A stretch of 64,000 nucleotides of DNA from Candidatus Omnitrophica bacterium UBA6215 (GCA_002421665.1 DISH01000006.1:217784-281783), one strand, 5' to 3'. Positions 1,279 through 60,406 are shown, counted from the stretch's first letter. Notes: generated by a model not told the origin, from the sequence alone. A program made the numbers and translations.

Positions 1279-1302
1279 GCCAGCTCACACTCCTGAAATT
1301 TA

Positions 1303-2798: not shown

Positions 2799-2821
2799 TT
2801 GGCGCTCCCAGAGGTGTGAAA

Positions 2822-2898
2822 TGGTGGGCGATAAAGGATTCGAACCTTTGACCTCCACAATGTGAATGTGGCGCTCTAACCAACTGAGCCAATCGCCC
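2822..2898 (-). tRNA. tRNA-Val (anticodon CAC)
   Basis: A cloverleaf folded by hand from the reverse complement GGGCGATTGGCTCAGTTGGTTAGAGCGCCACATTCACATTGTGGAGGTCAAAGGTTCGAATCCTTTATCGCCCACCA. It has a 7-bp acceptor stem, GCTC/GAGC D stem, CCACA/TGTGG anticodon stem with loop TTCACAT, a TTCGAAT T-loop and an encoded CCA. Confidence 0.85.
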
Positions 2899-2904
2899 AA
2901 AAAA

Positions 2905-2981
2905 TGGTGGGCCCAATAGGACTTGAACCTATGACCCGCTGATTATGAGTCAGCTGCTCTAACCAACTGAGCTATGGGCCC
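2905..2981 (-). tRNA. tRNA-Met (anticodon CAU; elongator Met or possibly Ile2/lysidine type)
   Basis: Reverse complement GGGCCCATAGCTCAGTTGGTTAGAGCAGCTGACTCATAATCAGCGGGTCATAGGTTCAAGTCCTATTGGGCCCACCA. It has a 7-bp acceptor stem, anticodon loop CTCATAA and an encoded CCA. It lacks initiator features (C1:A72 mismatch, three G-C pairs in the anticodon stem). Confidence 0.8.
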
Positions 2982-2997
2982 ATGAAAAGTATTAGAT

Positions 2998-3026
2998 ATG
3001 ATACTATTTCGGGGTATTTTTGGCAA
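2998..3026 (-). promoter_or_regulatory. Putative sigma70 promoter for the tRNA-Met/tRNA-Val transcript
   Basis: On the minus strand, TTGCCA, a 17-nt spacer and TATCAT sit about 16 nt upstream of the tRNA-Met 5' end, in the 67-nt gap between the rpoD stop and the tRNA. Confidence 0.4.
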
Positions 3027-3048
3027 GCCAAAAATTACTGCGGAGGCG

Positions 3049-8019: not shown

Positions 8020-9399
8020 ATGGCTAATACGGCTTGCAGCGAAAACCTTAAGGTCAAGAACGAGGTCGCGGACCGCGTTCTTCTTGTATTGAATTCCTAC
8101 GATAAACTTGAATTCTCCCCGGATCTAAGGCAATTCTTCAAAAAGAAATTAAGGGAAAAATACAACAAGGTAATAGAGGTCGAGCTTATAGGCATGGCGG
8201 AGCTCGGGCAGACCAGGGGAAACCTTACCGGTTACCTCAGGACGCACGAGCGTATAAAAAAACTCATGTCAAAGAAAAAACTCGATTCCTTCGATACTAT
8301 CATATACATACATGACGCCGGGTTGGCTACCAGGATCTTCCCCCTCTCTTATGAGTTTGGGACCCCGTCAAAGGCAAGCATAAGGTTCCCCGAAGGCAGG
8401 GCGCCGGACATGCTTCTTCCCTGCATAGCGAAAAGTATCCCGCTTTTAAAGAATACTGTGGTAATATTGCCGATAGACCAGTATTTCGACTATTCGGATA
8501 TAGATATAGGCGGACTCCTCAAGTCCCTCAACAAAAATACCGCTTCCATGCTCTTCACTCCCGTCCAGATAAACAGGGCTCTGGGAAGCCTGGGGACGGC
8601 TAAACTCGGAGAGGACAATTCTATTTCATGTTTCTACGAGAAGACCTTTGACGAAAAATTAATACCCAAATTCGGAAAGAATATGACGCTGGCAAACACT
8701 TTCCAGCTTTTTATGACCAAGGAAGGCATAGACAAGCTCCAAAATGCCCTTGATCTTTTCTGTTCCAAGGAAAAGAACAAGGACTTCATAATCCACTTGA
8801 ACGCAACTGAATGGAGCTTCAATAAACTTGTCTGCGAATCCCTTGTCCTCAACAAAAAAGCCCTCTCAAAGATACAGTTGTCCATGCGTGAATGCCTGCA
8901 GCAATATGAGATAAGCGTAGGCGGCGCGGTAGCCAAGGGATATTGGATAGACTGGGCGTCAAATATAATGACCTACCTGGAACTTTTGAGGAAACTTACG
9001 GCACAAATAGCCAAGCCGGACGAATACGGCAATTATTTCGTCAGGAGCAAGAAGATAAAGCCTTCGAGTAAACTGGAATCGTGCGTATTCATCGATTGCG
9101 ATACCATAGATCTTTTCGGAAGCTATAAGAATTGCATATTCATAGCTTGCGAATGGGTCAGGATAATGAATTGCTTCGAGGGCAACGGCTCCCTGTTCTA
9201 TGCACTCAAAAAGAAGAACTTCCTGCGCAAAGAGATGAATTACAAGCTGTTCGCAAATTTCTTAAGCGGAAGGCGCAATATAGAGTTCGAATGCGACATC
9301 TATGATGACTACAGGAACCTCTATAGCGCAATGAAGAAGGTCAGTGACGACTGGCTCTATTATCACGAAGTCCTGAAGGAAAGCTACAACACTAGGTAA
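8020..9399 (+). CDS. Hypothetical protein with divergent sugar-phosphate nucleotidyltransferase-like (GT-A) segment
   Basis: 459-aa ORF. Residues about 95-160 (HDAGLATRIFPLSYEFGTPSKASIRF...VVILPIDQYFDY) resemble the NTP_transferase signature GxGTRLxPLT...PK...GDhiy, but two of the three signature glycines are replaced. Convergent with the giant gene; the 3' ends overlap by 8 nt. Confidence 0.55.
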   Translation: MANTACSENLKVKNEVADRVLLVLNSYDKLEFSPDLRQFFKKKLREKYNKVIEVELIGMAELGQTRGNLTGYLRTHERIKKLMSKKKLDSFDTIIYIHDAGLATRIFPLSYEFGTPSKASIRFPEGRAPDMLLPCIAKSIPLLKNTVVILPIDQYFDYSDIDIGGLLKSLNKNTASMLFTPVQINRALGSLGTAKLGEDNSISCFYEKTFDEKLIPKFGKNMTLANTFQLFMTKEGIDKLQNALDLFCSKEKNKDFIIHLNATEWSFNKLVCESLVLNKKALSKIQLSMRECLQQYEISVGGAVAKGYWIDWASNIMTYLELLRKLTAQIAKPDEYGNYFVRSKKIKPSSKLESCVFIDCDTIDLFGSYKNCIFIACEWVRIMNCFEGNGSLFYALKKKNFLRKEMNYKLFANFLSGRRNIEFECDIYDDYRNLYSAMKKVSDDWLYYHEVLKESYNTR

Positions 9400-12300
9400 T
9401 CTTCTGGAAGTCTGTCGAGAACGCCTTTATACACCTGGACATATAGATCGTAACAGCTTTCTTGGCCCTTACCTCATCCTCATAAACCCTAACAAGCTTG
9501 GCTTTGTAGGCGCGATCCAGTTTCTTCCAGATATCTTCCATCGCCCTGACGTTCTCGTTAAGCCTGTTAAAATCATTTATGATCACGCTGCTGTAAAACT
9601 TGCCCAGGTAGACCCTGTCATCGGAGGTATGCTCTACGTTCAGGATGAGCATATAGGCCGCCTCCAACACCACAAAAACCCATAGCCAGTGAGAATAGCA
9701 CCTTGCGTTGAACTCTGAGGCAAAATAGAGCAGGAACGTCAACAGGATTGTAAATATGAACACGGCTTTTACCCTGCCCAGCACCCTGTTATACCTTATC
9801 TCTGCCTGCCTGTCGCTCTGTATGAGTTCTTGGTGCGAAAAATACATATCGTCCATAAGATCGGACTTCTGGACCGAAGAAGCAGCCGGGTAACCGGGCA
9901 GGTTATCCTTCAGCCATTTATTCAATCGAGTATAACCGCTGAGCTTCCATTTCAGCAGCGCCCAACCTATCAGGGAAGATATACCCAGAAGTGTATAGAC
10001 CACCGATTCAGGAGACGCGGTAGCCGGCCCCGAAGCTATGGAACTTATACCCAGGACAACACAAACAAACAGCAATGGTATTATCACGAAGTTCCAGAAC
10101 TTCGAGATCGTCAACTCCTTGAAGAGCGCTATAGGCTGTGAATGGGCAAAAAGCGGCATTATTATGAAAGACAACGTCGTGCTTATATACAACGCCGAGA
10201 ATATGAATAATGCTTTGACCGCCAACGACGAGAATATCAGGCCCCACATGACAAAACCCACTCCCGTGAAGACGAGAAGGACTACGGCATATATTATCTG
10301 CAGCTTGATCACGGACATCTTCCCTATATCCCCGTCAGGGACTACCTCGTCACGCCAGTTCTTAAGGTACGGTATGCCTATCTTGTTCCATTTGACCCCG
10401 GCGGTATACATCAGGGCGACTATGGCAAAAGGCAGGAACGGTATGAAGGGGCTAAGCCATAACGGCATCGACTTCGTCGCCACCGCCACATAAGCCAAAG
10501 GCAGGCCTATTATCGTGCTGAACATGGAGGCCTTCAGTATGTCCCTCTTCTCCCCCCAGATGATCTTAAGCGGTAAATGTCCGAGGTTCCACCCCTTCGG
10601 GCTTATTATGAATATAGCCTTGCCTTTAAGTCCGGCGAGGAACCCGAAGGCATACGCCGGTATGACCGACGCGTAGAAGAAATGATTCTTCGCAACCAGT
10701 CTTAAATATGCCGAGAAAGATTTCTTGAACCCAAAATGTTCAAGCAGGTATGCGATACCTGTTGCGGTTATCGATTGGTTGAAAAGCAGCCCTAAGATAC
10801 CGAATACTATAGGATACGGCACGGCCATGAAACCGTTTATACCCCAGCATATCATCAGCCACAAGTAAAGGAAATTGATTATGAACATGAGCGGCGTCTG
10901 GTAGAAGAATGAGAACCCGAACATAAGCATGAACTTCTGGGCTACGTGCAGGTTCTCGGAATTCAATATACCGGGGATGACCCTGCCTATGGCGGCATCG
11001 GAAGAACCCATGGCCCACTTTGTAAGCGGGACTAGGCTGGTAAAATATGAGGTCTCCCTGCCTTTACCGAAGAGCAGGTATTCCTTATGAGCGGTCCTGA
11101 AACCTTTCTTCCAAAGAGATGTCGCCAACAGTATATCTTCTGATATGTAGTCCTGCGGGAAACCTCCCGCAGCTGTTATCATATCGGTCCTTATGATCGC
11201 ACTATGGCCGTAAAAACCGCAGGCCTGGAATATGTTCAGGGTGCGCTGCGTAACGGATACGAACGTCTCCTCGTTGAAACCTATTGCCTGAGATATCCAT
11301 GAGTAATTTTTGTTGAATATATACTCCGCGAAGAGAACTTCGCCGAGAGCAGGGTCACTCCTGAATTCCGATAATGCCACCGGTATCTTGACGGCGTCCT
11401 CTACCCTGACAGAACAGTTGGCATCGAAGAAAAGTACGGTCTCGCCTTTTATGAAAGGCAGGGCCTGGTTAAGGCCGCTCGGCTTGCCTTTCTTAACGGG
11501 CGCTACAAAAGGTGCGGTCTCTATAAGTTCTATCCTGCCGGAAGTCTCATCATACCTGTGCAGGCCGCAGTCACTGCCCTTGGAATAGGTAACGGCCGTT
11601 TCGTTTTCCCCGGATGTGTAATCGGCATCGCTGGCAAACCAATAAACGTTGAGCTTCGGCATCTCTTTCATCAATCTTCTCAGGGCTATCCTGTCCGAAT
11701 CCTTGGTCGCGGGGCTGTGATATCCCTCATAGTTGAGCAATATCTGGACCTTCTCGGAAACCATGCGCTCTATCTCTCCATCGGAAGACCCCGGGTAGCA
11801 GATGCGGGCGTACATAGCGAAAGCGTCCCGTATCTTGTATACTTCTACGGCCGTCTTCTCAACACACTGGACGGTAAGATTAGCCCACTTGCGTATCTTT
11901 TCCCTGAGCTGTTCGGGCAACCCTTCCGGGAGCCTCTTAAGGCCGAATAACAACTTGAGTTGCTCCCGTGTAACAAATTGCCCCAGATCGGAACTGCCAA
12001 GCCTGTTGACGAATTCTTCCCACTGGGGCCTGTAAAAACCTATAAGGTGGTTTAGCCTGGTAACTTCGGCGCCCCTGTCGCAACCGTTGAGCTCGTCGAA
12101 AGTAAAGCTGACAGGTTCGTTAAAAGCGGTTATCATTGCCGTCAGCGAAGGCAGATCTGTCCAGGATTCCGCCTTTGGCATTTCCATGAGCCAGCTGTTA
12201 ATATAGACCCTTATCCTTTCCGAAGCTTCTTCGGCGCGTGGCGGCCTGTCAATTTTCGGAGTGGGATTCCCGGATGAATAGACAAGCGACTCCTTCTCTT

Positions 12301-15300
12301 TCCCGCTTATGACATAGTAATCGTGGAGTTCCTTTATCATTGCATTCCAATAGGATTTCCACGTCTCATCAGCGAGGCCGGAAGCCTTCCCCCCTGACGA
12401 CATCATTACATCCGAGAAACGCTGCCTCGATAACCCGAATTTCCTTCTCAACTGGCCCCAGGATATGACCTGCCCGACCCCCTCCCTCTTGCCCCGGTAA
12501 AAACCTATAAGGGCTATTATTATATAGAACAGGGAGAAGAAACTTGAGAGTATAAAAGTAAACGTAAGCAGCAGCGCGCTTAAGTTAATGAACAAACCCC
12601 AACCAGCGTTCACGAACGTAAGTTTGATTATTATCCTGACCGTCCAGATTATCACGAATATACTGAACAGGCCCCACAGGTACGATGCGGAAAAGAACAT
12701 AACCCAGAACAATCTGGTGGAGCGTCTTATCTCGCCGCTTTCCGCGCTTGCAAGGCAAGCCGGCCTGTAGTTGCCAAGGCTCCGTTTCATTAATAGCACT
12801 GTCAGCATTACACCGGCCAGGATCAAGAGGGTTATCTCTATGAACACGGCCAACACGTTCGGGGACAAACGCACGATCGGAGAAAGAATATCGACAAGGT
12901 GGACGGACAATTGCTCTATCCTCCCGGCGAACGGCAAGAGCTTCAAGGCTATAGCCGCTCCGCCGAGGATGACAACGGAAAATATCGGTACGTGAAACTC
13001 CCAGAACCTGCGCAAGTTATCTACGAATTGCGGTATGCCGGCCTTGTCCGGGAACGTCTTCATCCACGCATAGCTTTTATAAGACTTCGGGTCCGATGAG
13101 GGCTCCTTGCCGCCTTTTGTCTCCAGGAACAAAAGTTTCTGTTCCGCGGAAGCTCCCGTAAGTTTAGAGAAGGAAGGTATGAATCCCGGCCTCCTGCCCT
13201 CGAAAAGGTCGTTCATGTCGTCATAAGTGAATATATACTCCTTTATAAGGCCGAGTTTCTTATCATATCCCGGCCTCAAAACTTCTATGAATACCTGCAC
13301 ATCGCTTCGGATCTCTTTTAATACATCAGGCCCTTTGCCGGAACGCAGTATGCCAAGCGATTTATCAAACAGGTAATTCCTGAAACCCGGTACCGCCGCC
13401 CTGAATTCCACGGATTCGTCAAATATCAGGCGGAACAATACTACAAGCGCGAGTTCATCCGGCTTATTCCCAAAACCCGACAGCTTGATCCCGCTTCCGT
13501 TCTTGCCCGACCACTTCTCGAACTCCCTCGCCTCAACTGCAAACAGGTTCCCGAGAATTATCTCCTCGCGTCCTACCCTGTCGGCTATCCTCTTTACAAT
13601 GACATTTATACCGGCGGAATGCCTTGAAGGATCTGCGCCAAAATCGCGGAAACGTTCTTCCAGCAAAGGACGGAACGTTTCCATGACCGCGGCAAAAAGT
13701 ACGGACGTAGGCTTATTCCCTTCGTATACATCTATGCATGCTTTCTTGACTTCTTCAGGAAGGCTCGACCTTTCCAATAAGGCCCTGCTAAACGGCGCTA
13801 TGGCGCCTTTCGGCGGCACCTGCGCCTTTGCTTCATCCTCGGCGACCTTTATCCTGCGGGCCCTGCCTGCTTTCAGCCTCCGCCTGGATATATACCCGAA
13901 CATGAAGAGTGTGCCGGCAAATAATGCGGCAAAGAGGATAGGTTTCTGCCATCTTATGGTCTTCATGAGGTATACTGAACTGCTTTCTATATGTTCCTTC
14001 TTGTATTTATACACACCGTTGTCATCAAATTCGTAGTCCGACCTTATCCAGTGTTCGATATCGAACGGCCTGCGTTCGAGGAATGTCTGTGTCTGCCATC
14101 CGTTGCGATGGTAAACGCTGGCATCTCCGAGGAAAACCGCTACTATCTGAGTACCCGGTTTTGTGCCTTCCGGCTGGGTACCCGGTTTGAAATATCTTTC
14201 TATCTTTATGGGCCTTAGGTATGAATACGGGACAAGCGGATCATAATACTCCGTCTGCCTTCCCCCCTGTATCGGGAGTATGTTCATAAGCCTCAATATT
14301 ATGAAGCGGCGCTCGAGAACGATCAGCTGCCCGCTCAGGGAATGGACATCGTAAAAAGCGTAATCGGAATTCAAGACACCGTATTTGACGCCCCTTATAG
14401 GAGGTCCGTCAGGCAGCTTGAACGGTTTCACCTCAGGCTCATAAGGAACCCTGATCATCGGGTGGCTAAATACGCTGCGCGGATATTCGAGCGTTCCGGA
14501 GAAATATTTGATCTCTCCGACGCGCCCGCCTGGTTCTATGGTATGGTAACCGGGCAGCGTCCCGAACGGGGCTTTTTCCACATTATTCATCGCTTCATCA
14601 AGCGCCTTGCGTTTGATGAGCTTCCCGTACTCGGTCTTCAGTAACTCCCTGAGCTGGTCGACCTCCAGGCCTTCCTTGTACCATTCATAGATTACCGTAT
14701 CTTCCTTCTTGGCTATGGCACGGGTACGGTCTTCTCCCCGGTCATCCTTCCAGGATTCCAGCAGGGTATCCCTGCCGAATATGTTCTTCTTGAGCTTGAG
14801 CTTGCTTCCTTTATGCAATGTCGTCTCATCGCCGAGCATCACGAACTTGACGTTCACCAATTCCCTTCCAAGCACGTCATCGGGAATCATATAACTGACC
14901 GTTGTTATGGCTACGGTATTAGTGAAATGCGGGAACCCGTCTTCCCCGGTAACCATCCTGAATATCCTCTTCTTCATCTGAGGCAACAGGGTGTCGGCAT
15001 ATATGCCCAGAGGCTCCATTCTCTTTATATATTTGGGAGAAAGCACCGAATCGGCGCGGACAGAGTTATCGACATCGCTTATAGATACAAGTTCTCCCGC
15101 GAGATTGAACGTCAGGGTCTTTGCCGGTATTTCGGTCTCGGCTATCCAATCTACCGGGACCTCTAAGGTACCGCCGCGAACTATTAACCTCTGCCTGCCA
15201 AGGCTGTCTCCCGGTTCATAGAAAACGAAATAAGGTGTCTCTCCGGGGGCATTAGGGTCACCGGTAAGGTTGCTTGTTACCTCGTTCTCTTCCAGAATAA

Positions 15301-18757: not shown

Positions 18758-21700
18758 TTTGACACGTAAGTTATATATGAATCAATACCCTTGGCTGTAT
18801 ACCTCATAAGGTACCGGTCAAGCTCGTTCATAAGGCTGACCATGTGGTAATAAGCCTGTATATTCTTTATTTTGTTGTTCAACAGGGTCTCTTTTATCTC
18901 CCTGATCCTTACGACGGACATGTCCCCGGTTGCTTCTTCAGCGCGCATGAGTTCGTTCATCCGTTCCTCGAGTACGGATACGTTCTTTTTAAAATTCTCG
19001 TAGTCCAAAACGGCCATCTTATAATCGGTGAAAATCCTTAAAGCATTCTGGAGTACCTCAGACATGTACGACTTCGACTTGAGGGCCGTTATCTTCTCCT
19101 GTAACGCTGCCACTCTCGCCTTGGTGGCCGTGGTAGGGTCGAATATCTTATCCATGGAATTAAGGGATATGAACTCCGAGAGAGAATTATAGCGGGAGAA
19201 TATGGCTTCATTCCTTGTTACTGATCCCATGAAGTCGGTAAGATAAGTATACTCGAGATTGAAAGTCAGGGACTTGATCTGCTTTGATATGGCCTCGGTA
19301 TCAAGCCTGGTCATCTTTATATTGTATTCGATCCGTTTCAGCAGGTCTTCGCGCAGCGGCACCTCCAGATCCTTCTTCGCCAGCCCAAGTTCTGCAGCAA
19401 GCCTTTCTTTTATATCACAGTCATCGGCCAACGTCACTCTCTTGGACAATTCGTCATAGACCTCGATATTCATTATGGAGAACCTGGGGTCAAGCCCTCC
19501 GACTACTATACCGAGATTGCTCCTGTAGCCCTCGCAATATTTACGGGCATCTATTGTTTTTTGCAGAAGGCTTTCTACGAATTCCTTTTGTTTGAGATAA
19601 TCGACATGGGCTACCGCTCCCGCCGTGTAAAGCTCCTCGACCCCTGCAAGAACCGCTTTCTGTTTCTCGCATTCATCGTTTACCTGCGAATATTCCGCGA
19701 GCGAAGCCAGGTAATCGCAATACGCATCCACCACTTTTACGCTGAGGTCGAACTTGGCCTGCTCGAGGTCTTTCCTGGCAAGTTCAACCCTCAATTCCTG
19801 TTTCTTTACCATAAGCTTGTTCACAAGATCCACTTCCGCGGAAACGACCGCCCCGGTCGTCTGGACGGTCTTTTTCTTCTGGGAACCCCTGTTATCCATC
19901 ACATAATAACCTTTGCTTACGTTGCCGTTGACCCTTATCATCTTATAATAGTTCAGGGACTCTTCCTCAAGTAAGAGGGCTTCCTCGTATTTTTTGACCT
20001 CGCGGCTGTTACGCAAAGCGATATCCAGGGCCTCCTGAAGACCCGACAGAAGTATCTTATCGCTTCCTTCCTGCCGGGCGTCTTTCTCCACAAAGAGGAT
20101 CTCCCTTGCGCTTGCGTAGTAATTATCGAACACTGACTCTTCATAGGTCAGCTGGGAGACAAGGTAATCAAGGCGGGCATCCGCCCATTGACGTTTTGTC
20201 CTTCCCCCGAACTTGTAAAGTTCATCCGTTATCTTGAACTGGTTCCCGGAATTCTCCATCTTGTTACGCAGATCATTGAGAAGGTCGTTCGAGGCGTCGT
20301 ATGCGGATTTTACGGCAAACTTCTCTTTCTCGTAAGAATCCATGCTCTTCGCGTACTCTATCTCCGATTTTATACGGTCCCTGGCGGCTTCAGACATCGC
20401 TATCTTCTCGGCATGGTCTCCCCAAGGTATAGAGACGCTGAAGGAAAGCTGCTTGTCCGGGTCTTCCCAGCCGTCATAATCTGAACCTTTGGTCTCATAC
20501 CTGACCTGCCATATTGCCCCTTCATAGGCCAAGGCCTTGGCCTCGCCCGCCCTCTTCCTCTCAACGGTATTGAGCGCCTGCTTTACGGAAGCCATGCCGT
20601 CATAATAAGGCTCTACCTTCTCTTTCAGCATCATCTTGAAATCGGACAACCCCTCTTCGCTTCCGAACAGGGCAGGTTCCTTGACCGTTATGGTCTCATT
20701 AAGCGGTATCCCCGTCCATCTCTTGAGATTATACTCGGCTACCGCCAGGGAAAATTCGACATTCGAGATCTCCTTGTCCACTTCAAGCCGCTGGAGGACA
20801 AGAGGAAGTATGTCAGAGTTGGTATACTTGGGGTTTTTCCCCTTCATATCCTCGAGCATATCGTTTATAAGGTCGTTTTTGAGTCGTTTTATCTCGTCAA
20901 GCTTTTTAAGGGTATTACCGAAACGCAGGACGAGGAGATAGTTCCTTATTACCTCATCGGCAACTACGCTCTGTAGGGCCCTGCCCCCGCATTCGGCCTC
21001 CTTGAGCCCTGCTCTGGCGGCTTTTACCGCCGCTCCGACCTTATTGTCGAGTATGCGGCCTTCCAGGGCAAGGAATGCCCTTGTATTCTTAGAAGGAGTC
21101 CCGTTTATGTTCACGTTCTCCAGGACCGCCGCTCCGTAAAGTTTCGGAAGATAACCGGCCTTCTCCGCGCCAATGCGCACCTTTTCTATTTTTATCCTCT
21201 TCTCTGCTATCTGCCTTGCCGTAAGAAGGTCCGCCCTCTCTCCCCTTGAGATCAGGTCCTCGAGCCCCATATCCTGGTAGGTCGGGCTGGTATTCTCCGG
21301 CTTGAGCTCTATCCCGTTGAGATTCGATAAAGTTACCGTATAATCGCTCAGGGCCTGCTGCAAAGCGTATTTGGCCTTGTATAGGTTATCGCTCATCCTT
21401 ATTATCTCGATGACCGGGAGCGAAAGCTTCTCTCTTAGCATCCTCAGGGTGTCTTCCGTCTTCGCTATGTACTCCCTATAGTTATCTATCTTATCCCTGA
21501 GGTCGGTTATTTTCGCGTTCCCTTTGAGGTCGTCGCACTCGAGGTCCTCCGAAGCCTTCAATACCTCAAGCCTGGCTATTTGAGATTCCAGGCTCTTCGT
21601 ATGGTTCAGGCCTTCGGAATGGCCGAAATCCGTAACGAATAACTCCAACTGGGTATCGGTTATTACCTTCCTTTCGAACCTTGTGCCTTTGCCTTCCGCC

Positions 21701-22602
21701 AGGCCGAGTATAGTCGTTGAGGTCAGTTTCAGGCGGGGATTATTGCCTATATGGGCCGCTACGGAAGCTTCCTCGCTCCTCTTCTTGATTATATCAAGCG
21801 TATAGCTTTTGGGTCTTATCTCCGCCTTTTCGGCGAAGACCGGGTCCCTGTTCACGTTACCGGGAAGCTCCTGGACAACTATATCAAGGTCATCGTTGTC
21901 CTCCAACCCCAGCAATCCCCTGAGATCCCGCCTTGTATTAATGAGGGTGTTCAGAGCCCCTATCTTCCTCTCGTTGACTATGCCCAGATAATTCTTCAAT
22001 TCGAGTTTTTCCGTCTCCGTATATTCAGGACTGTCTTTTATAATGCCTATTACCTTCTCGACGGTCTCGACGTTATCGCAACTCATGCGATAATTCTCCT
22101 GCGCCGCGGCAACCGCATAATAAACCGATATAAGTTTCCTTGTTTTCCATGTGACAGCCTGTTTGACCTCAAGCAGGCTTGCCTCATAGTTCTTCCTGTC
22201 TTTGGAGATATAATTAAGGCTGTCGGAAGTGATAGACATCTCTATCACCAATTGCTGTTCCGAGAAAAGGTCTGTCTGCTGGTCGAGGTCACTGAAGAGG
22301 TCGAACGGTTTTACCACGCTTCCCGCTACGCTGATCTTAGGAAGGAAGGTGTCCATCTTCCTTGCCTTTATCCCAAGCACGGCGGCATCGGAGGAAAGTT
22401 TGGCTATCTGGATATCCCTGTCAACTTCATAAAGCTTGTTAAGGGCTGACTCAAGCGAAAGATTACTGCAATCTATTCCTGCCTGTAATTCCTCAGCAGA
22501 ATAAGGTTCTTCCGCACCGCCCGGACAGGATACGAGCATTACCGATACTGTCAACGCGGTAAAAACTACTGCTATAATTTTGATCGATCTTCGGCTAAGC
22601 AT
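18754..22602 (-). CDS. Outer-membrane efflux protein (TolC/OprM/NodT family) lipoprotein, 1282 aa, about three OEP units long
   Basis: Lipobox LVSC in the signal peptide and an OEP-family N-terminal signature LSLESALNKLYEVDRDIQIAKLSSDAAVLGIKARKMDTFLPKISVAG. OEP-like half-repeat starts recur at about aa 245, 445, 640, 830 and 1030. Highly coiled-coil. SD AAAGGGG upstream. Confidence 0.75.
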   Translation of the reverse strand: MLSRRSIKIIAVVFTALTVSVMLVSCPGGAEEPYSAEELQAGIDCSNLSLESALNKLYEVDRDIQIAKLSSDAAVLGIKARKMDTFLPKISVAGSVVKPFDLFSDLDQQTDLFSEQQLVIEMSITSDSLNYISKDRKNYEASLLEVKQAVTWKTRKLISVYYAVAAAQENYRMSCDNVETVEKVIGIIKDSPEYTETEKLELKNYLGIVNERKIGALNTLINTRRDLRGLLGLEDNDDLDIVVQELPGNVNRDPVFAEKAEIRPKSYTLDIIKKRSEEASVAAHIGNNPRLKLTSTTILGLAEGKGTRFERKVITDTQLELFVTDFGHSEGLNHTKSLESQIARLEVLKASEDLECDDLKGNAKITDLRDKIDNYREYIAKTEDTLRMLREKLSLPVIEIIRMSDNLYKAKYALQQALSDYTVTLSNLNGIELKPENTSPTYQDMGLEDLISRGERADLLTARQIAEKRIKIEKVRIGAEKAGYLPKLYGAAVLENVNINGTPSKNTRAFLALEGRILDNKVGAAVKAARAGLKEAECGGRALQSVVADEVIRNYLLVLRFGNTLKKLDEIKRLKNDLINDMLEDMKGKNPKYTNSDILPLVLQRLEVDKEISNVEFSLAVAEYNLKRWTGIPLNETITVKEPALFGSEEGLSDFKMMLKEKVEPYYDGMASVKQALNTVERKRAGEAKALAYEGAIWQVRYETKGSDYDGWEDPDKQLSFSVSIPWGDHAEKIAMSEAARDRIKSEIEYAKSMDSYEKEKFAVKSAYDASNDLLNDLRNKMENSGNQFKITDELYKFGGRTKRQWADARLDYLVSQLTYEESVFDNYYASAREILFVEKDARQEGSDKILLSGLQEALDIALRNSREVKKYEEALLLEEESLNYYKMIRVNGNVSKGYYVMDNRGSQKKKTVQTTGAVVSAEVDLVNKLMVKKQELRVELARKDLEQAKFDLSVKVVDAYCDYLASLAEYSQVNDECEKQKAVLAGVEELYTAGAVAHVDYLKQKEFVESLLQKTIDARKYCEGYRSNLGIVVGGLDPRFSIMNIEVYDELSKRVTLADDCDIKERLAAELGLAKKDLEVPLREDLLKRIEYNIKMTRLDTEAISKQIKSLTFNLEYTYLTDFMGSVTRNEAIFSRYNSLSEFISLNSMDKIFDPTTATKARVAALQEKITALKSKSYMSEVLQNALRIFTDYKMAVLDYENFKKNVSVLEERMNELMRAEEATGDMSVVRIREIKETLLNNKIKNIQAYYHMVSLMNELDRYLMRYTAKGIDSYITYVSK

Positions 22603-22629
22603 GACCCCTTTAGATAAGTTAAGGTAATG

Positions 22630-22824
22630 CTATTTTTTTGCCTTAAGGCCCTGAGAATGCATCTTAAGCCACTCATCTATATCCTGCTTATTGAACAGGT
22701 ATTTCCTCAAAACTTTAACATGCGGGAAACTCTGTTCTTTAATAAGCTTACGGATACTTCCTTCGCTGAGGCTTAGATATCTCGAGACCTCATCCATTGT
22801 TATATATTTCGTGCTTGTATCCAT
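22630..22824 (-). CDS. Small helix-turn-helix DNA-binding protein (excisionase/MerR-like HTH family)
   Basis: 64-aa ORF with the pattern ITMDEVSRYLSLSEGSIRKLIKEQSFPHVKV...DIDEWL typical of excisionase-family HTH proteins. Strong SD (AAGGAG-N8-ATG). Only 27 nt upstream of the OEP gene. Confidence 0.7.
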   Translation of the reverse strand: MDTSTKYITMDEVSRYLSLSEGSIRKLIKEQSFPHVKVLRKYLFNKQDIDEWLKMHSQGLKAKK

Positions 22825-22856
22825 TTAGCCTCTCCTTCCCTCATATTTCGTATATA

Positions 22857-22885
22857 ATTGTATTACACGTATTAAGGCTCGTCAA
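22857..22885 (-). promoter_or_regulatory. Putative sigma70 promoter for the HTH-OEP-giant gene operon
   Basis: On the minus strand, TTGACG, a 17-nt spacer and TACAAT, about 30 nt upstream of the SD AAGGAG and the ATG of the HTH gene. Confidence 0.5.
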
Positions 22886-22924
22886 GGATTTTATTGTTAC
22901 AGGAAGAATTGAAGGATAGTGGTT

Positions 22925-24217
22925 CTATTCTGCGGGTTTTTCGGTTTCCCTAAGCTTGCCGTTCTCGTCAAAACTTATCTTTGAACCTTTCGGGTAAAAG
23001 CGCCCCTGCACGTCTTGGTCTCGGCCCAAGATCACATAGCGCAATTTCCCGGATTCCCCAAGGCCCACTATAGTGTCCCTCATAAAAAGGGTCTCTCCTA
23101 TCTTATGGTCTTTGGCCAAGGAAGCATATTGCAGGCTGCCCGATTCATAAAGATCGACCTTTGTGTTCGCTGCACAAGGTATACCGCTTATCTCATTTTC
23201 TTCGCCGAGCGTCGCATATTGCAGTTTCCCGGATTCGTAGAGTCCCGCGACCGTACACTTAGCGCAGGGAATACCGTTTATTTTTTGCCTGGATACAAGC
23301 GTTCCGAATTGCAATTTTCCTGAAAGATAAAAACCGGCTTTACTACCCTTGGCATAATATATGCCGTTTATGTTCTGGTCGTCCGCCAACGTGGCATACT
23401 GCAGGTTCCCAGACTGGTAAAAACCTATGGTGGAACCTTTCGCGCACATGATACCCTGGACCTTGCTGATCTCATTGAGAACCGCCCAATCTACTTTCCC
23501 GTTCTCGTAAAAACTAACACTTGGACCGCTTGCGCAGGTGATACCCATCACCTCGGTAGGCGAAACCAGATACGCGTTCTTTATGCTGCCGGATTCATAA
23601 AAGACGAAGTAAGTCCCCTGCCTGAACTTTACTCCGCCCATGTCGACATCCGCCGGGATCGTAACGTACTGCAGTCTTCCGGATTCATAAAAACCGGCGG
23701 GAAAACCTTTGGCACAAACGATACCCTGTATATCCTGGTCTTTGGCCAATGTGGCATACTGCAATTTCCCGGATTCATAAAAACCGGCTTTTGTGCCTTT
23801 CGCGCAATATATCCTTTGGACCTCTTCATCGGCAGCAAAGACGGCATGTAAAAGCTTTCCGGCCCTACTGAAATACAATGAGGTGCCCTTGGCAAATGGT
23901 ATCCCATAGACCTGCTGGTCCGCGCCAAGGTAGGCGTAATCGAGCTTTCCCGCTTCGTTGAAATATACCGAAGTACCTTTTGTAAAAAAAATACCCGATA
24001 CATGCTGGTCCGCGCCAAGGTAGGCGTACTGTAATCTTCCGGCTTCCGTAAAATAAACAAGCGTTCCCTTAGGGAAATCTATACCCTGTATAGTCTCGGC
24101 TTTTTTCAGGACTTTATCGCGTATGATGACATCGGCGGAAGCGGGAAAACCCGCGGATAGGGCAGCCGCAATGAAGACGGCCGACAGTAAAAACCGGGTC
24201 AGATCTGGACGACGCAA
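22925..24217 (-). CDS. Secreted protein composed of 13 tandem 30-residue repeats (MORN-like/YwqK-like motif)
   Basis: 430-aa ORF. N-terminal signal peptide (FLLSAVFIAAALSAGFPASA), then 13 imperfect repeats of 30 aa with consensus GIxCAKGTxxGFYESGKLQYATLAxDQxIx. No other domain. Confidence 0.75.
   Translation of the reverse strand: MRRPDLTRFLLSAVFIAAALSAGFPASADVIIRDKVLKKAETIQGIDFPKGTLVYFTEAGRLQYAYLGADQHVSGIFFTKGTSVYFNEAGKLDYAYLGADQQVYGIPFAKGTSLYFSRAGKLLHAVFAADEEVQRIYCAKGTKAGFYESGKLQYATLAKDQDIQGIVCAKGFPAGFYESGRLQYVTIPADVDMGGVKFRQGTYFVFYESGSIKNAYLVSPTEVMGITCASGPSVSFYENGKVDWAVLNEISKVQGIMCAKGSTIGFYQSGNLQYATLADDQNINGIYYAKGSKAGFYLSGKLQFGTLVSRQKINGIPCAKCTVAGLYESGKLQYATLGEENEISGIPCAANTKVDLYESGSLQYASLAKDHKIGETLFMRDTIVGLGESGKLRYVILGRDQDVQGRFYPKGSKISFDENGKLRETEKPAE
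22928..24085 (-). repeat. 90-nt periodic tandem coding repeat (13 copies) within the repeat-protein gene
   Basis: The recurring plus-strand element ttcccggattcataaaaaccgg and its variants are spaced 90 nt apart. This corresponds to the 30-aa protein repeat. Confidence 0.7.
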
Positions 24218-25776
24218 TTTCTTCCTTTGTCCTTAGCTTGATAAAGGGCGACGTCCACCCGTTTCAGGAAATCATGGGGAAATATGTCTTTCTTTATGTC
24301 GTCTTCCGAGAGCGTCGTCACTCCGATACTTACGGTAACTTTCAATTTCTTGTCCTCATATTCGACTATAACATCCTCGGCTATCTTCTTGCGTATTCTC
24401 TCCGCCAATATATATATGCCTTCCCTGTCTGTCTCGGTGGCAAGCACTACAAGCTCCTCGCCGCCATACCTTGAAGCAACATCGGACTCCCTAAGGCTGG
24501 CCTTAAGCATATCGGAGATCTTGATCAGGACCTCATCGCCTACCTGGTGGCCGTAGTTGTCGTTGAATGACTTGAAATGGTCGATATCGAGCATCATGAG
24601 CGACAACCTGGTCCTGTACCTCTTAGCCCTGTAAACTTCGGCTTTCAACGTCTCCAGGAAGTAGGAATGTGTATAAAGGTGAGTCAATTCATCCGTTATG
24701 GCTCTCTCCCTCTGTTTCTTCAATTCAATGGTCATCATGTTGAACGACCTGGCGAGCTCGCCTATCTCGTCATCAGTCTTTATGTCTATCTTGTGGTTAA
24801 GGTCGCCTTCACCGACTATCTTAGTACCTATAAGCAGCTTCCTGACCGATACAAGCATGCTGTTTGAAAGCACCAGCCCTATTGCTATAGCCACCATTAT
24901 GCTCAGGATAAGCAGGATGAGGGATTGGCTTCTCATCTTCGCCACGCCGTAAAGAGCTTCCTGGGCAGGCTGCTTTACCACGACCGTACCTTTGATATTC
25001 CCTGACAACGGAAGGTATGATACCAGCATGTCGCCTATATTAGCGCTCCCGGTCTTACCCTCAAGGGCAAGTTTCACCGTATTGTCGTTATACAGGTTTC
25101 CGGTATCCGCATCTCCCGTCTTGTATATAAGGTTACCTTTTTTGTCTGTCACGATTATCGTTCCCCTCTCGCCTATCTTGGTCTGGTCCAGCATAGGCCA
25201 AAGGCTGCGAAGCTTGACCGCGGTCACAAGTACGCCTATCCTCCTGCCGTAGCTGTCATAATCAAATATCGGGGAAGCTATCGTAACAAAAGGCTGGCCG
25301 CCCGAAGAAAAATATATATCCGATATATAACTCTTCTTCTTGGATTTCAGGAAGATGTCGCTTAAGGACATGTCTTTGTTCTGGTCACCCGGGTTCCGGG
25401 AAGCTATCTCTATGCCCTGCTCGTTAAGCACGGCCACGGGGTCCAGCATCTCGTGTTCCGAGATGATCTCATACATCATCTTGTCTATCTGGAAGAGGTC
25501 GAAATCCTTTATGCTGGGCATGAGGGTCATGAGTTCGACTGAAGATTTGGCCTGTTGCAGGAAGTTATCTATCTTGCTGCGTACGTTCTCGCACGCGGTG
25601 AGGTTCCTCTTGAGGACGGCATCTTCCAAGGAACTCTGCCCCTGGTAGATGAGGATCATCCCGCTCAGGAATGTGGTAAATGTCACGAGCAGGATAAATA
25701 TCAGGATAAACCTGAAATTAATGCTGGAAGTAAAAGGGATCTTCTCTCTTGTACTGGTAAGCGGAACTTCTGCCAA
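24199..25776 (-). CDS. Sensor diguanylate cyclase (N-terminal TM, periplasmic dCache-like sensor, HAMP, GGDEF domain)
   Basis: 525-aa ORF with two TM segments flanking an approximately 250-aa periplasmic region. A HAMP-like linker is followed by a GGDEF domain with the active-site variant RYGGEEL and an I-site-like RESD. Overlaps the downstream gene by 19 nt. Confidence 0.85.
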   Translation of the reverse strand: MAEVPLTSTREKIPFTSSINFRFILIFILLVTFTTFLSGMILIYQGQSSLEDAVLKRNLTACENVRSKIDNFLQQAKSSVELMTLMPSIKDFDLFQIDKMMYEIISEHEMLDPVAVLNEQGIEIASRNPGDQNKDMSLSDIFLKSKKKSYISDIYFSSGGQPFVTIASPIFDYDSYGRRIGVLVTAVKLRSLWPMLDQTKIGERGTIIVTDKKGNLIYKTGDADTGNLYNDNTVKLALEGKTGSANIGDMLVSYLPLSGNIKGTVVVKQPAQEALYGVAKMRSQSLILLILSIMVAIAIGLVLSNSMLVSVRKLLIGTKIVGEGDLNHKIDIKTDDEIGELARSFNMMTIELKKQRERAITDELTHLYTHSYFLETLKAEVYRAKRYRTRLSLMMLDIDHFKSFNDNYGHQVGDEVLIKISDMLKASLRESDVASRYGGEELVVLATETDREGIYILAERIRKKIAEDVIVEYEDKKLKVTVSIGVTTLSEDDIKKDIFPHDFLKRVDVALYQAKDKGRNCVVQI

Positions 25777-56010: not shown

Positions 56011-56013
56011 GTA

Positions 56014-60350: not shown

Positions 60351-60406
60351 GGTTTATCCCTCCCACCCGGCTATTTGACCACGCTGTTCAATTAAAATAT
60401 ATCATA

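What the first reader, a model, noticed from the sequence alone, without database searches (positions are those of the whole stretch)
9392..25776. Putative envelope-biogenesis operon (HTH regulator, OEP, giant synthase) flanked by a repeat protein and a GGDEF sensor
Three features suggest one transcription unit:
- a sigma70-like promoter (TTGACG-17-TACAAT);
- tight spacing, with 27 nt between the HTH and OEP genes;
- an ATGA overlap between the OEP and giant genes.

The unit would encode a small excisionase-type HTH protein, the outer-membrane factor and the giant glycosyltransferase-like protein.

Immediately upstream lie a secreted 13-repeat protein and a membrane dCache-HAMP-GGDEF diguanylate cyclase.

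This resembles c-di-GMP-controlled exopolysaccharide loci. However, no PilZ domain is evident in the giant protein.
Basis: inference. Interest (0 to 1): 0.55.

Follow-up and report, generated by a model that had tools for sequence, protein, structure and literature searches.

The report
Bacterial callose-synthase-type glucan export locus
An uncultured Omnitrophota bacterium has a conserved gene set pairing a giant membrane enzyme of the fungal/plant beta-1,3-glucan synthase type, for which I found no bacterial report, with a triple-length TolC-like outer-membrane channel, apparently to make and export a glucan.

Summary
In detail: gene order, the 27-nt gap, the ATGA overlap and the promoter are all present. 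The promoter hexamers are invariant in five relatives while the spacer upstream varies.

The interpretation needs sharpening.
- **Giant protein (3,121 aa).** Its C-terminal half is a GT48 (FKS1/callose-synthase) domain, Pfam PF02364 at 94 bits. Eleven of 14 FKS1 active-site residues are conserved and invariant in the family. About 1,575 N-terminal residues are predicted periplasmic and include a GH76-like stretch.
- **"OEP" (1,282 aa).** It is three times normal size. All six ~200-aa segments hit Pfam OEP, so it is probably a single-chain TolC-like channel.
- **Conservation.** This gene sits directly upstream of the giant gene in all 16 loci that cover that end.
- **Other partners.** The GGDEF/13-repeat pair and a missed GlgC-like gene (8020-9399) recur even where gene order differs. 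The HTH gene is clade-specific.
- **c-di-GMP.** No PilZ domain, other receptor motif or riboswitch was found.

The likely function is synthesis and export of a beta-glucan. Product, export route and c-di-GMP control are inferred. Both AlphaFold models failed. All named close relatives are Omnitrophota MAGs, and I found no literature on bacterial GT48.

The parts
24199..25776 (-). Membrane sensor diguanylate cyclase (dCache_1-HAMP-GGDEF, 525 aa). It has an RxxD I-site and a GGEEL active-site motif.
   Evidence: Pfam gives GGDEF 1.6e-43, dCache_1 4.9e-19 and HAMP 9e-11. The motif RESDVASRYGGEEL is GGEEF or GGDEF in the orthologues. A 46%-identical orthologue lies downstream of the giant gene in L004. 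It is also present in L016.
22925..24217 (-). Secreted repeat protein (430 aa) of 13 units of exactly 30 residues, MORN_2-like. Its start overlaps the GGDEF stop by 19 nt.
   Evidence: Pfam MORN_2 scores 33.3 bits against a cut-off of 29.6. The repeat register is shown and the overlap. A 37%-identical orthologue again follows the GGDEF gene in L004.
22857..22885 (-). Sigma-70-type promoter TTGACG-17-TACAAT in the 100-nt gap upstream of the HTH gene.
   Evidence: The consensus scan finds it. Both hexamers and the sequence down to the ribosome-binding site are invariant in six clade members, while the upstream spacer varies.
22630..22824 (-). Small HTH_17 (excisionase/MerR-type) DNA-binding protein, 64 aa. 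It is a clade-specific first gene of the unit.
   Evidence: Pfam HTH_17 3.3e-12 and TIGR01764 2.7e-12. It is present only in loci at about 74% identity or more, and absent from L004, L006 and L020.
18754..22602 (-). Triple-length TolC-like outer-membrane lipoprotein (1,282 aa). It has an LVSC lipobox and six OEP-type helix/beta-hairpin/helix units. The proposed thirds are 21277-22515, 20059-21276 and 18757-20058.
   Evidence: Each of six ~220-250-aa segments (they overlap) has Pfam OEP as its top hit, with E from 1.9e-10 to 0.054. In the 28%-identical L004 homologue, five of six segments hit OEP. The profile of the last third hits OprJ, CmeC and NodT structures. Family lengths are 1,251-1,350 aa. 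The gene is directly upstream of the giant gene in 16 of 16 loci. The fold was not confirmed, because the AF2 model had pLDDT 39.
9392..18757 (-). Giant 3,121-aa inner-membrane protein, conserved along its whole length.
   Evidence: Fourteen full-length homologues of 3,035-3,136 aa share 43-96% identity. Mean column identity is 66% across the whole alignment.
18668..18724 (-). N-terminal signal-anchor helix (residues 12-30).
   Evidence: Hydropathy is 2.83, and the preceding sequence MRPEMAKNGKK is positively charged.
17318..18667 (-). Predicted periplasmic domain (residues 31-480) with a GH76-like stretch of about 90 residues, consistent with an (alpha/alpha)6-type fold.
   Evidence: Pfam Glyco_hydro_76 scores 27.9 bits over residues 164-272. 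The family profile matches alpha-1,6-mannanase 4BOJ at E 4.4e-9 over 88 residues. Catalytic residues were not tested.
13943..17317 (-). Predicted periplasmic region of unknown fold (residues 481-1605), strongly conserved.
   Evidence: There is no Pfam hit and no PDB profile hit. Many columns are invariant. The location is inferred from the flanking helices.
13886..13942 (-). Transmembrane helix (residues 1606-1624) that returns the chain to the cytoplasm.
   Evidence: Hydropathy is 1.77, and the helix is followed by RRRLKAGRARRIK, which fits the positive-inside rule.
12992..13885 (-). Cytoplasmic domain of unknown fold (residues 1625-1922), in the position of the FKS1 accessory domain.
   Evidence: The profile finds no significant PDB hit and Pfam finds no FKS1_dom1. 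The positional analogy with FKS1 is inference.
12500..12991 (-). First transmembrane bundle (residues 1923-2086), about five or six helices.
   Evidence: Hydropathy peaks.
10826..12250 (-). GT48 (FKS1/callose-synthase-type) catalytic domain (residues 2170-2644). Conserved residues are E2214, K2425, D2445-A-N2447, E2478, E2496, H2518, E2540-D2541 and K2565-G-R2567.
   Evidence: Pfam PF02364 scores 94.2 bits against a cut-off of 37.2. FKS1 structure 7YUY matches at E 6.4e-11, with the alignment shown. The functional FKS1 residues are listed in PMC10499315. The residues are invariant in the family.
9635..10825 (-). Second transmembrane bundle (residues 2645-3041), the presumed glucan channel.
   Evidence: Hydropathy peaks. 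The channel role is inferred from FKS1 and BcsA (PMC10499315).
9395..9634 (-). Conserved basic C-terminal cytoplasmic tail (residues 3042-3121), a candidate regulatory element.
   Evidence: It is 20% Lys+Arg and carries no PilZ motif. It is conserved in the family consensus. A regulatory role is speculation.
8020..9399 (+). It is convergent with the giant gene and overlaps its 3' end by 8 nt.
   Evidence: It neighbours the giant gene in 15 loci, the window included, and has moved upstream in L004/L005. Four of six family members hit TIGR02091 glgC, best E 2.2e-4. Three of six hit Pfam NTP_transferase. The motif HDAGLATRxFPL is invariant. The overlap is shown.

Best explanation
This is a conserved Omnitrophota envelope module for making and probably exporting a beta-glucan.

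Shown:
- One conserved promoter precedes a small HTH gene, a 1,282-aa TolC-like lipoprotein gene and a 3,121-aa membrane-protein gene.
- The C-terminal half of the giant protein is a GT48 (FKS1/callose-synthase-type) glycosyltransferase set between two transmembrane bundles. Its active-site residues are intact.
- The TolC-like gene always accompanies the giant gene.
- A GlgC-like gene recurs beside the pair in most loci, and a GGDEF cyclase with a secreted repeat protein recurs in several lineages, even where gene order differs.

Inferred:
- The GlgC-like enzyme makes NDP-glucose.
- The cytoplasmic GT48 domain polymerises it, most likely into a beta-1,3-glucan, and threads it through its own channel, as FKS1 and BcsA do.
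- The ~1,575-residue periplasmic arm (GH76-like domain plus an unknown region) receives or trims the chain. It may stand in for the missing membrane-fusion adaptor.
- The six-repeat TolC-like protein forms a complete 12-stranded duct from one chain and carries the polymer across the outer membrane.
- The dCache-HAMP-GGDEF sensor, perhaps modulated by its periplasmic repeat-protein partner, sets c-di-GMP levels. These act through a receptor that is not yet identified.
For: GT48 identity:
- PF02364 scores 94 bits against a cut-off of 37.
- The best solved structure is FKS1, E 6e-11, ahead of BcsA at 4e-7.
- A family profile finds eukaryotic GT48 proteins from about 1e-25 to 1e-54.

Activity:
- FKS1 residues E851, K1082, D1102, N1104, E1155, E1173, H1195, E1221, D1222, K1246 and R1248 align to identical residues. 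Their roles are given in PMC10499315.
- Ten of these eleven residues are invariant across 14 homologues and E2496 is conserved in at least 90%.

Topology: hydropathy and charge distribution.

Coupling:
- OEP-giant adjacency in 16 of 16 loci, with gaps of about 30 nt or less, or an overlap.
- The GlgC-like gene and the GGDEF/repeat pair are retained across rearrangements.
- One lineage instead carries a histidine kinase, a response regulator and a GH16 glycoside hydrolase (a family that includes beta-1,3-glucanases) upstream.

Other points:
- The promoter is conserved.
- Six OEP segments, and OprJ/CmeC/NodT structures are hit by the last third.
- No membrane-fusion, ABC or RND gene lies in any locus examined.
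Against: - No biochemical data exist for any bacterial GT48. Linkage type and sugar donor are inferred from eukaryotic enzymes that share about 25% identity in the GT domain.
- Three FKS1 active-site positions differ (D1080, K1172, N1220).
- Only positions 4-502 of the 819-position Pfam profile are matched.
- I know of no precedent for polysaccharide export through a TolC-like duct (own knowledge).
- The single-chain barrel is unconfirmed. The AF2 model had pLDDT 39 and repeat 2 is barely detectable. Internal-repeat tests were uninformative.
- No c-di-GMP receptor was found and no riboswitch.
- The window cyclase has GGEEL rather than GGEEF.
- The GlgC-like assignment rests on weak hits, best E 2e-4.
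- The GH76-like stretch would suit a mannan better than a glucan.
Confidence: 0.55

Rival explanations
1. The glucan stays in the envelope as a periplasmic or wall-like layer. The TolC-like protein does not export it. Instead it anchors the giant protein's periplasmic arm to the outer membrane as a trans-envelope tether.
For: The periplasmic arm is very large and conserved. No adaptor protein is encoded nearby. I know of no precedent for polysaccharide export through TolC-type ducts (own knowledge).
Against: Strict pairing and coupled junctions fit a shared pathway, although they do not exclude a tether. OEP-family proteins are channels in every characterised case (own knowledge).
Confidence: 0.2
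2. The GT48-like domain does not make a beta-1,3-glucan. It makes another polymer or a glycolipid, for example a mannose-containing or mixed-linkage product, which the GH76-like domain then processes.
For: - GH76 enzymes act on alpha-1,6-mannan, and the N-terminal domain matches them at E 4e-9.
- Identity to eukaryotic GT48 in the GT domain is only about 25%.
- Three active-site positions differ.
- The protein also resembles GT2 cellulose synthases.
Against: - Donor- and acceptor-site residues match FKS1.
- The conserved neighbour resembles glucose-1-phosphate adenylyltransferase.
- One lineage carries a GH16 gene (a family that includes beta-1,3-glucanases) next to the module.
- The GH76 match covers only 88 residues.
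Confidence: 0.15
3. It is a Lap-like or type I secretion system. In that reading, a giant protein is threaded into or through a TolC-like pore under c-di-GMP control.
For: The combination of a giant protein, a TolC-like gene and a GGDEF neighbour superficially resembles LapA/LapE/LapD (own knowledge). The gene content is shown.
Against: - No ABC transporter, membrane-fusion protein, LapG-type protease or LapD-type receptor lies in any locus.
- The giant protein has about 15-19 hydrophobic segments and a cytoplasmic GT48 domain.
- Pfam reported no RTX-type domain in the giant protein.
Confidence: 0.03
4. The genes are unrelated neighbours in a compact genome.
For: Neighbouring genes are housekeeping genes: fatty-acid synthesis and ETF on one side, and CvpA, NIF3, DnaG and RpoD on the other. 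Short junctions are common in small genomes.
Against: - OEP-giant adjacency holds in 16 of 16 loci across 44-97% identity.
- The GGDEF/repeat pair and the GlgC-like gene follow the module when order and flanks change.
- The promoter is conserved.
Confidence: 0.03

Closest known systems
Fungal FKS1/GSC2 and plant callose synthases (CAZy GT48, Pfam PF02364)
   Same: - The Pfam match is well above threshold.
- FKS1 is the best solved relative.
- Eleven of 14 active-site residues are identical.
- The GT domain lies between two transmembrane bundles.
   Different: - The host is bacterial (Omnitrophota).
- Only the first 502 of 819 profile positions match.
- There is no FKS1_dom1 and no Rho1-type regulation.
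- A ~1,575-residue periplasmic arm precedes the synthase.
- The partner is a TolC-like protein.
- GT-domain identity is about 25%.
Synthase-dependent exopolysaccharide systems, above all cellulose synthase BcsA/BcsB/BcsC
   Same: - An inner-membrane processive glycosyltransferase with its own channel. BcsA is the second-best solved relative, E 4e-7.
- An adjacent outer-membrane component.
- A periplasmic part.
- Diguanylate cyclase association.
   Different: - The catalytic domain is GT48-type rather than GT2.
- There is no PilZ domain.
- The outer-membrane part is TolC-like, not a BcsC-type porin with TPR repeats.
- The periplasmic part is fused to the synthase.
TolC/OprM/NodT outer-membrane factors (Pfam OEP)
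   Same: OEP repeats are present. The last third hits OprJ, CmeC and NodT structures. An LVSC lipobox is present, as in NodT-type lipoproteins.
   Different: It has six repeats in one 1,282-aa chain, where a normal protomer has two and forms a trimer. No membrane-fusion protein or ABC/RND/MFS pump is encoded nearby.
Cyclic beta-1,2-glucan synthase Cgs (about 2,900 aa; GT84 plus GH94)
   Same: Both are giant inner-membrane glucan synthases that combine a glycosyltransferase domain with a glycoside-hydrolase-like domain (own knowledge).
   Different: There are no GT84 or GH94 hits. Here the hydrolase-like domain is predicted periplasmic.
Curdlan synthase CrdS, the known bacterial beta-1,3-glucan synthase (GT2)
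   Same: It may make the same product in a Gram-negative envelope (own knowledge).
   Different: It belongs to a different glycosyltransferase family. Here the best matches are GT48.
YfiBNR-type control of a membrane diguanylate cyclase by a periplasmic partner
   Same: A membrane GGDEF sensor is translationally coupled to a secreted protein. The pair is conserved together.
   Different: The partner is a 13-unit MORN_2-like repeat protein with no similarity to YfiR. The analogy comes from my own knowledge and was not tested.

Membership tests
GT48 1,3-beta-glucan synthase (PF02364) | Sequence match to the family model above the curated threshold | tested here: met
   94.2 bits against 37.2. 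Residues 2174-2644 match profile positions 4-502 of 819.
GT48 1,3-beta-glucan synthase (PF02364) | FKS1 active-site residues for donor binding, acceptor binding and catalysis | tested here: met
   Eleven of 14 residues are identical, ten of them invariant and one at least 90% conserved in 14 homologues. The residue list comes from PMC10499315. D1080, K1172 and N1220 differ.
GT48 1,3-beta-glucan synthase (PF02364) | Cytoplasmic GT domain inserted between transmembrane bundles | tested here: met
   Hydropathy peaks lie at 1923-2086 and 2609-3041, either side of residues 2090-2605. The 3D model was unusable, with pLDDT 47.
GT48 1,3-beta-glucan synthase (PF02364) | N-terminal FKS1_dom1 / accessory domain and Rho-GTPase regulation | tested here: not met
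   There is no PF14288 hit. The profile of residues 1625-1922 has no significant PDB hit.
GT48 1,3-beta-glucan synthase (PF02364) | Makes beta-1,3-glucan from UDP-glucose | not testable with these tools
   This needs an enzyme assay and linkage analysis.
TolC/OMF outer-membrane factor (PF02321) | OEP repeats detected | tested here: met
   The whole protein scores 84 bits. All six segments have OEP as top hit, and five of six do in L004.
TolC/OMF outer-membrane factor (PF02321) | Two repeats per ~450-aa protomer, assembling as a homotrimer | tested here: not met
   The protein is 1,282 aa with about six repeats. Family lengths are 1,251-1,350 aa.
TolC/OMF outer-membrane factor (PF02321) | 12-stranded barrel plus alpha-helical tunnel | tested here: inconclusive
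   - The AF2 model had pLDDT 39.
- Six hairpin-like stretches can be read in the sequence.
- The middle third aligns over 342 columns to a canonical 393-aa OEP, but at only 26% probability.
TolC/OMF outer-membrane factor (PF02321) | Works with a membrane-fusion protein and an ABC, RND or MFS pump | tested here: not met
   No such gene lies in the window locus or in L001-L007.
c-di-GMP-controlled synthase-dependent exopolysaccharide system | c-di-GMP receptor on or beside the synthase (PilZ, I-site protein or MshEN) | tested here: not met
   There is no PilZ Pfam hit and no PilZ or MshEN motif in the giant protein. No c-di-GMP riboswitch was found.
c-di-GMP-controlled synthase-dependent exopolysaccharide system | Conserved association with a diguanylate cyclase | tested here: met
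   The GGDEF/repeat pair lies upstream in the window clade and downstream in L004/L005 and L016. It is replaced by a kinase and regulator in L006.
GH76 alpha-1,6-mannanase | Full-length match and catalytic Asp-Asp pair | tested here: inconclusive
   Only about 90-110 residues match: Pfam 27.9 bits and PDB profile E 4.4e-9. The alignments do not cover the catalytic pair.
Cyclic beta-1,2-glucan synthase (GT84/GH94) | GT84 and GH94 domains | tested here: not met
   Neither Pfam nor NCBIfam reports them.
GlgC-type glucose-1-phosphate nucleotidylyltransferase (for the 459-aa partner) | Match to the family model above threshold | tested here: inconclusive
   All hits are sub-threshold. TIGR02091 is hit by 4 of 6 members, best E 2.2e-4. 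NTP_transferase is hit by 3 of 6. An invariant G-x-x-T-R-x-x-P-L motif is present. The window protein itself has no hit.

The most novel reading that the evidence does not exclude
Omnitrophota and a few related uncultured lineages carry an old and very diverse radiation of GT48 synthases embedded in giant proteins. The eukaryotic FKS/callose-synthase lineage branches from within it.

On this reading, the window locus is a compact, complete bacterial GT48 machine. It uses a natural single-chain TolC-type duct, with no adaptor protein, to export a polysaccharide.

Support so far is limited to two results:
- A profile search found 665 cluster representatives, and about 125 of the best 150 are bacterial-type proteins.
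- In a rough midpoint-rooted neighbour-joining tree, all eukaryote-type sequences form one clade nested seven nodes inside the bacterial diversity.

The tree has no outgroup and no support values, and its distances are saturated.
Probability: 0.3. Interest if true: 0.85.

Novelty: new variant of a known kind. Interest (0 to 1): 0.7.

Why it matters
- **A bacterial model for a drug target.** GT48 enzymes build the fungal cell wall, where echinocandins act, and make plant callose. In the literature I could search they are treated as eukaryotic, and their origin is not discussed. A large bacterial radiation with intact catalytic residues would give tractable prokaryotic models for FKS-type catalysis and translocation. 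It would also make the origin of the family testable.
- **An unusual export route.** A single-chain, six-repeat TolC-like protein paired with a synthase and no adaptor would be a new way to cross the outer membrane with a polymer. It would also be a natural example of a fused pseudo-trimeric channel.
- **Omnitrophota biology.** These are tiny, uncultured, possibly host-dependent cells known for giant genes. This assigns a concrete biochemical role to one family of those genes.
- **Annotation.** NCBI currently names these proteins 'glycoside hydrolase family 76 protein', 'glycosyltransferase family 2 protein' or 'hypothetical protein'.

Tried and rejected
Attempts that gave nothing usable:
- Both AlphaFold2 models were unusable because the alignments were shallow. 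The GT48/TM half (7 sequences) had pLDDT 47. The TolC-like protein (8 sequences) had pLDDT 39. No fold search was run on them.
- A second homologue search with a profile of the TolC-like family returned the same seven proteins.
- Self-BLAST of the TolC-like protein found nothing.
- hhalign between its thirds found nothing significant.
- A leave-one-out HMM of the repeats did not separate real segments from shuffled ones.
- Profiles of the first and second thirds barely hit solved structures.
- Comparison with a canonical 393-aa OEP gave only 26% probability, although over 342 columns.
- Profiles of periplasmic residues 481-1605 and cytoplasmic residues 1625-1922 found no solved relative.
- PilZ, MshEN and GGDEF motif searches in the giant protein were negative.
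- Rfam found no riboswitch in the locus.
- Homologues of the L004 PilZ protein and the L006 GH16 are absent from the window.
- Tandem-repeat DNA search of the repeat-protein gene was negative. The repeats exist at protein level only.
- Literature searches for Omnitrophota with GT48, glucan synthase, callose or TolC, and for single-chain TolC, found nothing relevant.

Readings considered and rejected:
- Cyclic glucan synthase Cgs.
- A Lap/type I secretion system.
- An ordinary tripartite efflux pump.
- Chance adjacency of unrelated genes.

Full report
**1. Observation**

The minus strand carries five consecutive ORFs:
- a 525-aa protein at 24199-25776;
- a 430-aa protein at 22925-24217;
- a 64-aa protein at 22630-22824;
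- a 1,282-aa protein at 18754-22602;
- a 3,121-aa protein at 9392-18757.

Pfam assigns them dCache_1-HAMP-GGDEF, MORN_2-like repeats, HTH_17, OEP, and Glucan_synthase with a weak GH76 stretch.

- The HTH stop and the OEP start are 27 nt apart, with a ribosome-binding site between them.
- The OEP stop and the giant start overlap as ATGA.
- The start of the repeat-protein gene overlaps the GGDEF stop by 19 nt.
- TTGACG-17-TACAAT lies at 22885-22857.

A single promoter-like site means little here, because the region has 40 such sites against 21 expected. Comparison with relatives is more telling. In five relatives whose OEP and giant proteins are about 62-77% identical to the window's, the upstream spacer has diverged. 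The -35 hexamer, the -10 hexamer (TATAAT in two of them) and everything down to the ribosome-binding site are invariant. Terminator-like sites are not enriched, and none lies in the junctions.

The repeat protein has a Sec-type signal peptide and 13 units in an exact 30-residue register.

**2. The giant protein**

*Catalytic domain.*
- Residues 2174-2644 match Pfam PF02364, the catalytic component of fungal and plant 1,3-beta-glucan synthase (CAZy GT48). The score is 94.2 bits against a cut-off of 37.2.
- The best solved relatives are yeast FKS1 and GSC2 (E 6e-11). Bacterial cellulose synthase BcsA is second (E 4e-7).
- Zhao et al. 2023 (PMC10499315) list the FKS1 residues that bind the donor and acceptor or abolish activity when mutated.
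- In the alignment, the following FKS1 residues pair with identical residues in the window protein:

| FKS1 | Window protein |
|---|---|
| E851 | E2214 |
| K1082 | K2425 |
| D1102 / N1104 | D2445 / N2447 |
| E1155 | E2478 |
| E1173 | E2496 |
| H1195 | H2518 |
| E1221 / D1222 | E2540 / D2541 |
| K1246 / R1248 | K2565 / R2567 |

- Ten of these are invariant across 14 homologues, and E2496 is conserved in at least 90% of them.
- Three FKS1 positions differ: D1080, K1172 and N1220.
- This is what an active enzyme looks like, although activity itself is inferred.

*Topology.* Hydropathy and charge suggest the following layout:
- an N-terminal anchor at residues 12-30;
- about 1,575 residues outside the cytoplasm;
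- a return helix at 1606-1624, followed by a strongly basic stretch;
- a 300-residue cytoplasmic domain;
- a transmembrane bundle;
- the GT domain;
- a second bundle and a basic tail.

*Periplasmic arm.*
- The outside part begins with a stretch that matches GH76 alpha-1,6-mannanases over about 90 residues. The profile E-value is 4.4e-9.
- The remaining ~1,100 residues have no detectable relative.
- The arm is nevertheless as conserved as the catalytic half.

**3. The 'OEP'**

At 1,282 aa it is three times the size of a TolC or OprM protomer.
- I cut it into six overlapping pieces of about 220-250 residues. Each piece has Pfam OEP as its top hit, with E-values of 3e-6, 0.054, 2e-4, 9e-5, 2e-10 and 4e-3.
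- In the 28%-identical homologue from L004, five of six pieces hit OEP. In L006, two of the four pieces tested do.
- The second repeat is the weakest.
- A profile of the last third hits OprJ, CmeC and a NodT-family lipoprotein.
- The N-terminus has an LVSC lipobox.
- Six stretches with the look of beta-hairpins sit between long helical segments (read directly).

A normal protomer has two repeats and three protomers build the channel. The simplest reading is therefore a single chain that forms the whole channel. This is inference. The AlphaFold model was unusable and the internal-repeat tests were uninformative.

**4. Conservation**

The giant protein has only 14 full-length relatives in 5.8 billion sequences. 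They share 43-96% identity and are 3,035-3,136 aa long. All named ones come from Candidatus Omnitrophota MAGs.

A scan of GTDB representative genomes found 19 loci. Most are labelled Omnitrophota. A few MAGs are labelled Planctomycetia, Spirochaetes, Elusimicrobia, UBP3 or Auribacterota. Such labels are not reliable.

I searched 27 loci with family profiles.
- The triple-length OEP gene lies directly upstream of the giant gene in all 16 loci that reach the giant gene's 5' end.
- A 459-aa gene, convergent with the giant gene in the window (8020-9399, overlapping its end by 8 nt), recurs in 15 loci, the window included. It has moved upstream in L004/L005.
- The GGDEF and repeat-protein genes lie upstream in the window clade, but downstream of the giant gene in L004/L005 and L016. 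The L004 orthologues share 46% and 37% identity with the window proteins.
- In L020 the repeat gene abuts the OEP gene.
- One lineage (L006/L019) has a histidine kinase, a response regulator and a GH16 glycoside hydrolase (a family that includes beta-1,3-glucanases) in place of the GGDEF pair.
- The HTH gene is confined to the close clade.

The conserved core is therefore OEP plus giant. The GlgC-like gene and a sensor module are regular companions.

**5. The 459-aa partner**

The window protein has no Pfam or NCBIfam hit of its own. Across its family the picture is clearer.
- Four of six members hit TIGR02091, glucose-1-phosphate adenylyltransferase, with best E 2.2e-4.
- Three of six hit Pfam NTP_transferase.
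- The motif HDAGLATRxFPL is invariant and resembles the nucleotidyltransferase signature.

This is a weak but independent hint that the pathway uses NDP-glucose.

**6. c-di-GMP**

The cyclase keeps an RxxD I-site. Its catalytic motif is GGEEL in the window clade, and GGEEF or GGDEF elsewhere.

I found no receptor:
- no PilZ hit;
- no PilZ or MshEN motif in the giant protein;
- no riboswitch.

Control by c-di-GMP therefore rests on conserved neighbourhood alone.

**7. Mechanism proposed**

The steps below are inferred.
- The GlgC-like enzyme supplies NDP-glucose.
- The cytoplasmic GT48 domain polymerises it, most likely into a beta-1,3-glucan.
- The chain passes through the synthase's own channel, as in FKS1 and BcsA.
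- The periplasmic arm receives or trims the chain and may dock to the outer-membrane duct. No adaptor protein is encoded in any locus.
- The single-chain TolC-like protein takes the polymer across the outer membrane.
- The sensor cyclase and its periplasmic repeat partner tune the system.

The shown facts are the domain identities, the conserved residues, the junctions, the promoter footprint and the synteny.

**8. Wider context**

A profile of the GT48/TM half, searched against 1.84 billion cluster representatives, found 665 hits at E up to 1e-3 and 107 at E up to 1e-30.
- Most of the best 150 are giant proteins of up to 7,886 aa.
- Where they are named, they are almost all Omnitrophota. A few are labelled Elusimicrobiota, Patescibacteria or Dehalococcoidia.
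- One relative joins a lytic transglycosylase domain to the GT48 domain.
- About 25 of the 150 are eukaryote-type.

I built a rough neighbour-joining tree of the GT domain. In it, all eukaryote-type sequences form one clade nested inside the bacterial diversity. The tree has no outgroup and no support values, so I treat this as a lead only.

**9. Literature**

Full-text searches found no paper that links Omnitrophota with GT48, glucan synthase, callose or TolC.
- The two papers on Omnitrophota giant proteins mention neither GT48 nor TolC.
- Reviews of FKS and studies of GT48 evolution discuss eukaryotes only.
- No natural single-chain TolC turned up.
- The library lacks most subscription journals, so absence is not proof.

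**10. Verdict**

The locus is real and conserved. I rate it a new variant of a known kind: a synthase-dependent polysaccharide system built from a GT48 synthase and a fused TolC-type duct.

My confidence by claim:

| Claim | Confidence |
|---|---|
| GT48 homology | about 0.95 |
| Functional coupling of the OEP-giant pair | about 0.85 |
| Active enzyme | about 0.8 |
| Single-chain channel | about 0.6 |
| c-di-GMP control | about 0.5 |
| Export through the TolC-like duct | about 0.5 |
| Beta-1,3-glucan product | about 0.45 |

Noticed in passing
window 22826-22868 (-): The stretch from the -10 hexamer to the ribosome-binding site (GTAATACAATTATATACGAAATATGAGGGAAGGAGAG) is almost invariant in six clade members, more than a promoter alone would need. 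It may be an operator for the HTH protein or a 5'-UTR element.
   Followed up: partly
proteins P0026-P0171; tree: There is a large bacterial radiation of GT48-like domains inside giant proteins of up to 7,886 aa, mostly Omnitrophota. In a rough midpoint-rooted NJ tree, all eukaryote-type GT48 sequences form one clade nested within it. The tree has no outgroup or support values.
   Followed up: partly
L006 1219-5303: In one lineage the module is preceded by a dCache-HAMP-PAS histidine kinase, a GH16 glycoside hydrolase (with a weak SKN1/KRE6 match) and a response regulator, in place of the GGDEF/repeat pair. GH16 partners of GT48 synthases are also reported in fission yeast (abstract of PMC13612389).
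   Followed up: no
L028 5-23921: A 6,022-aa relative combines an SLT lytic transglycosylase domain with the GT48 domain. It is followed by a 1,020-aa unknown protein and a glycogen-synthase-like GT5 protein.
   Followed up: no
window 51859-63780 (-): Five consecutive ORFs of 1,027, 355, 1,041, 403 and 343 aa have no Pfam hit. A 786-aa PA14-domain protein lies next to them.
   Followed up: no
window 9392-9399: The convergent giant gene and the GlgC-like gene overlap by 8 nt at their stop codons. That leaves no room for a terminator between them.
   Followed up: no
window 1301-1650 (-), 2825-2898 (-), 2908-2981 (-): A bacterial class A RNase P RNA (208 bits) and two tRNA genes. The locus sits among housekeeping genes: RpoD, DnaG, NIF3 and CvpA on one side, and ETF, acyl-CoA dehydrogenase and fatty-acid synthesis genes on the other.
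   Followed up: no
window 24199-25776 (-): The cyclase of the window clade has GGEEL in place of GGEEF or GGDEF, while keeping the RxxD I-site. Orthologues in other clades have the canonical motif.
   Followed up: partly
L004 25352-26686 (-): A 444-aa membrane protein with a C-terminal PilZ domain lies about 4 kb from the module in L004 (~6 kb from the giant gene's end), next to ATP synthase genes. It has no homologue in the window.
   Followed up: partly
giant protein residues 2577-2584 (window about 11006-11029): The invariant PLTKWAMG resembles the QxxRW motif of GT2 cellulose synthases, whereas FKS1 has TTKIGAG at that position. This suggests the bacterial family sits between GT2 and eukaryotic GT48. 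The comparison with BcsA is from memory and was not tested.
   Followed up: no
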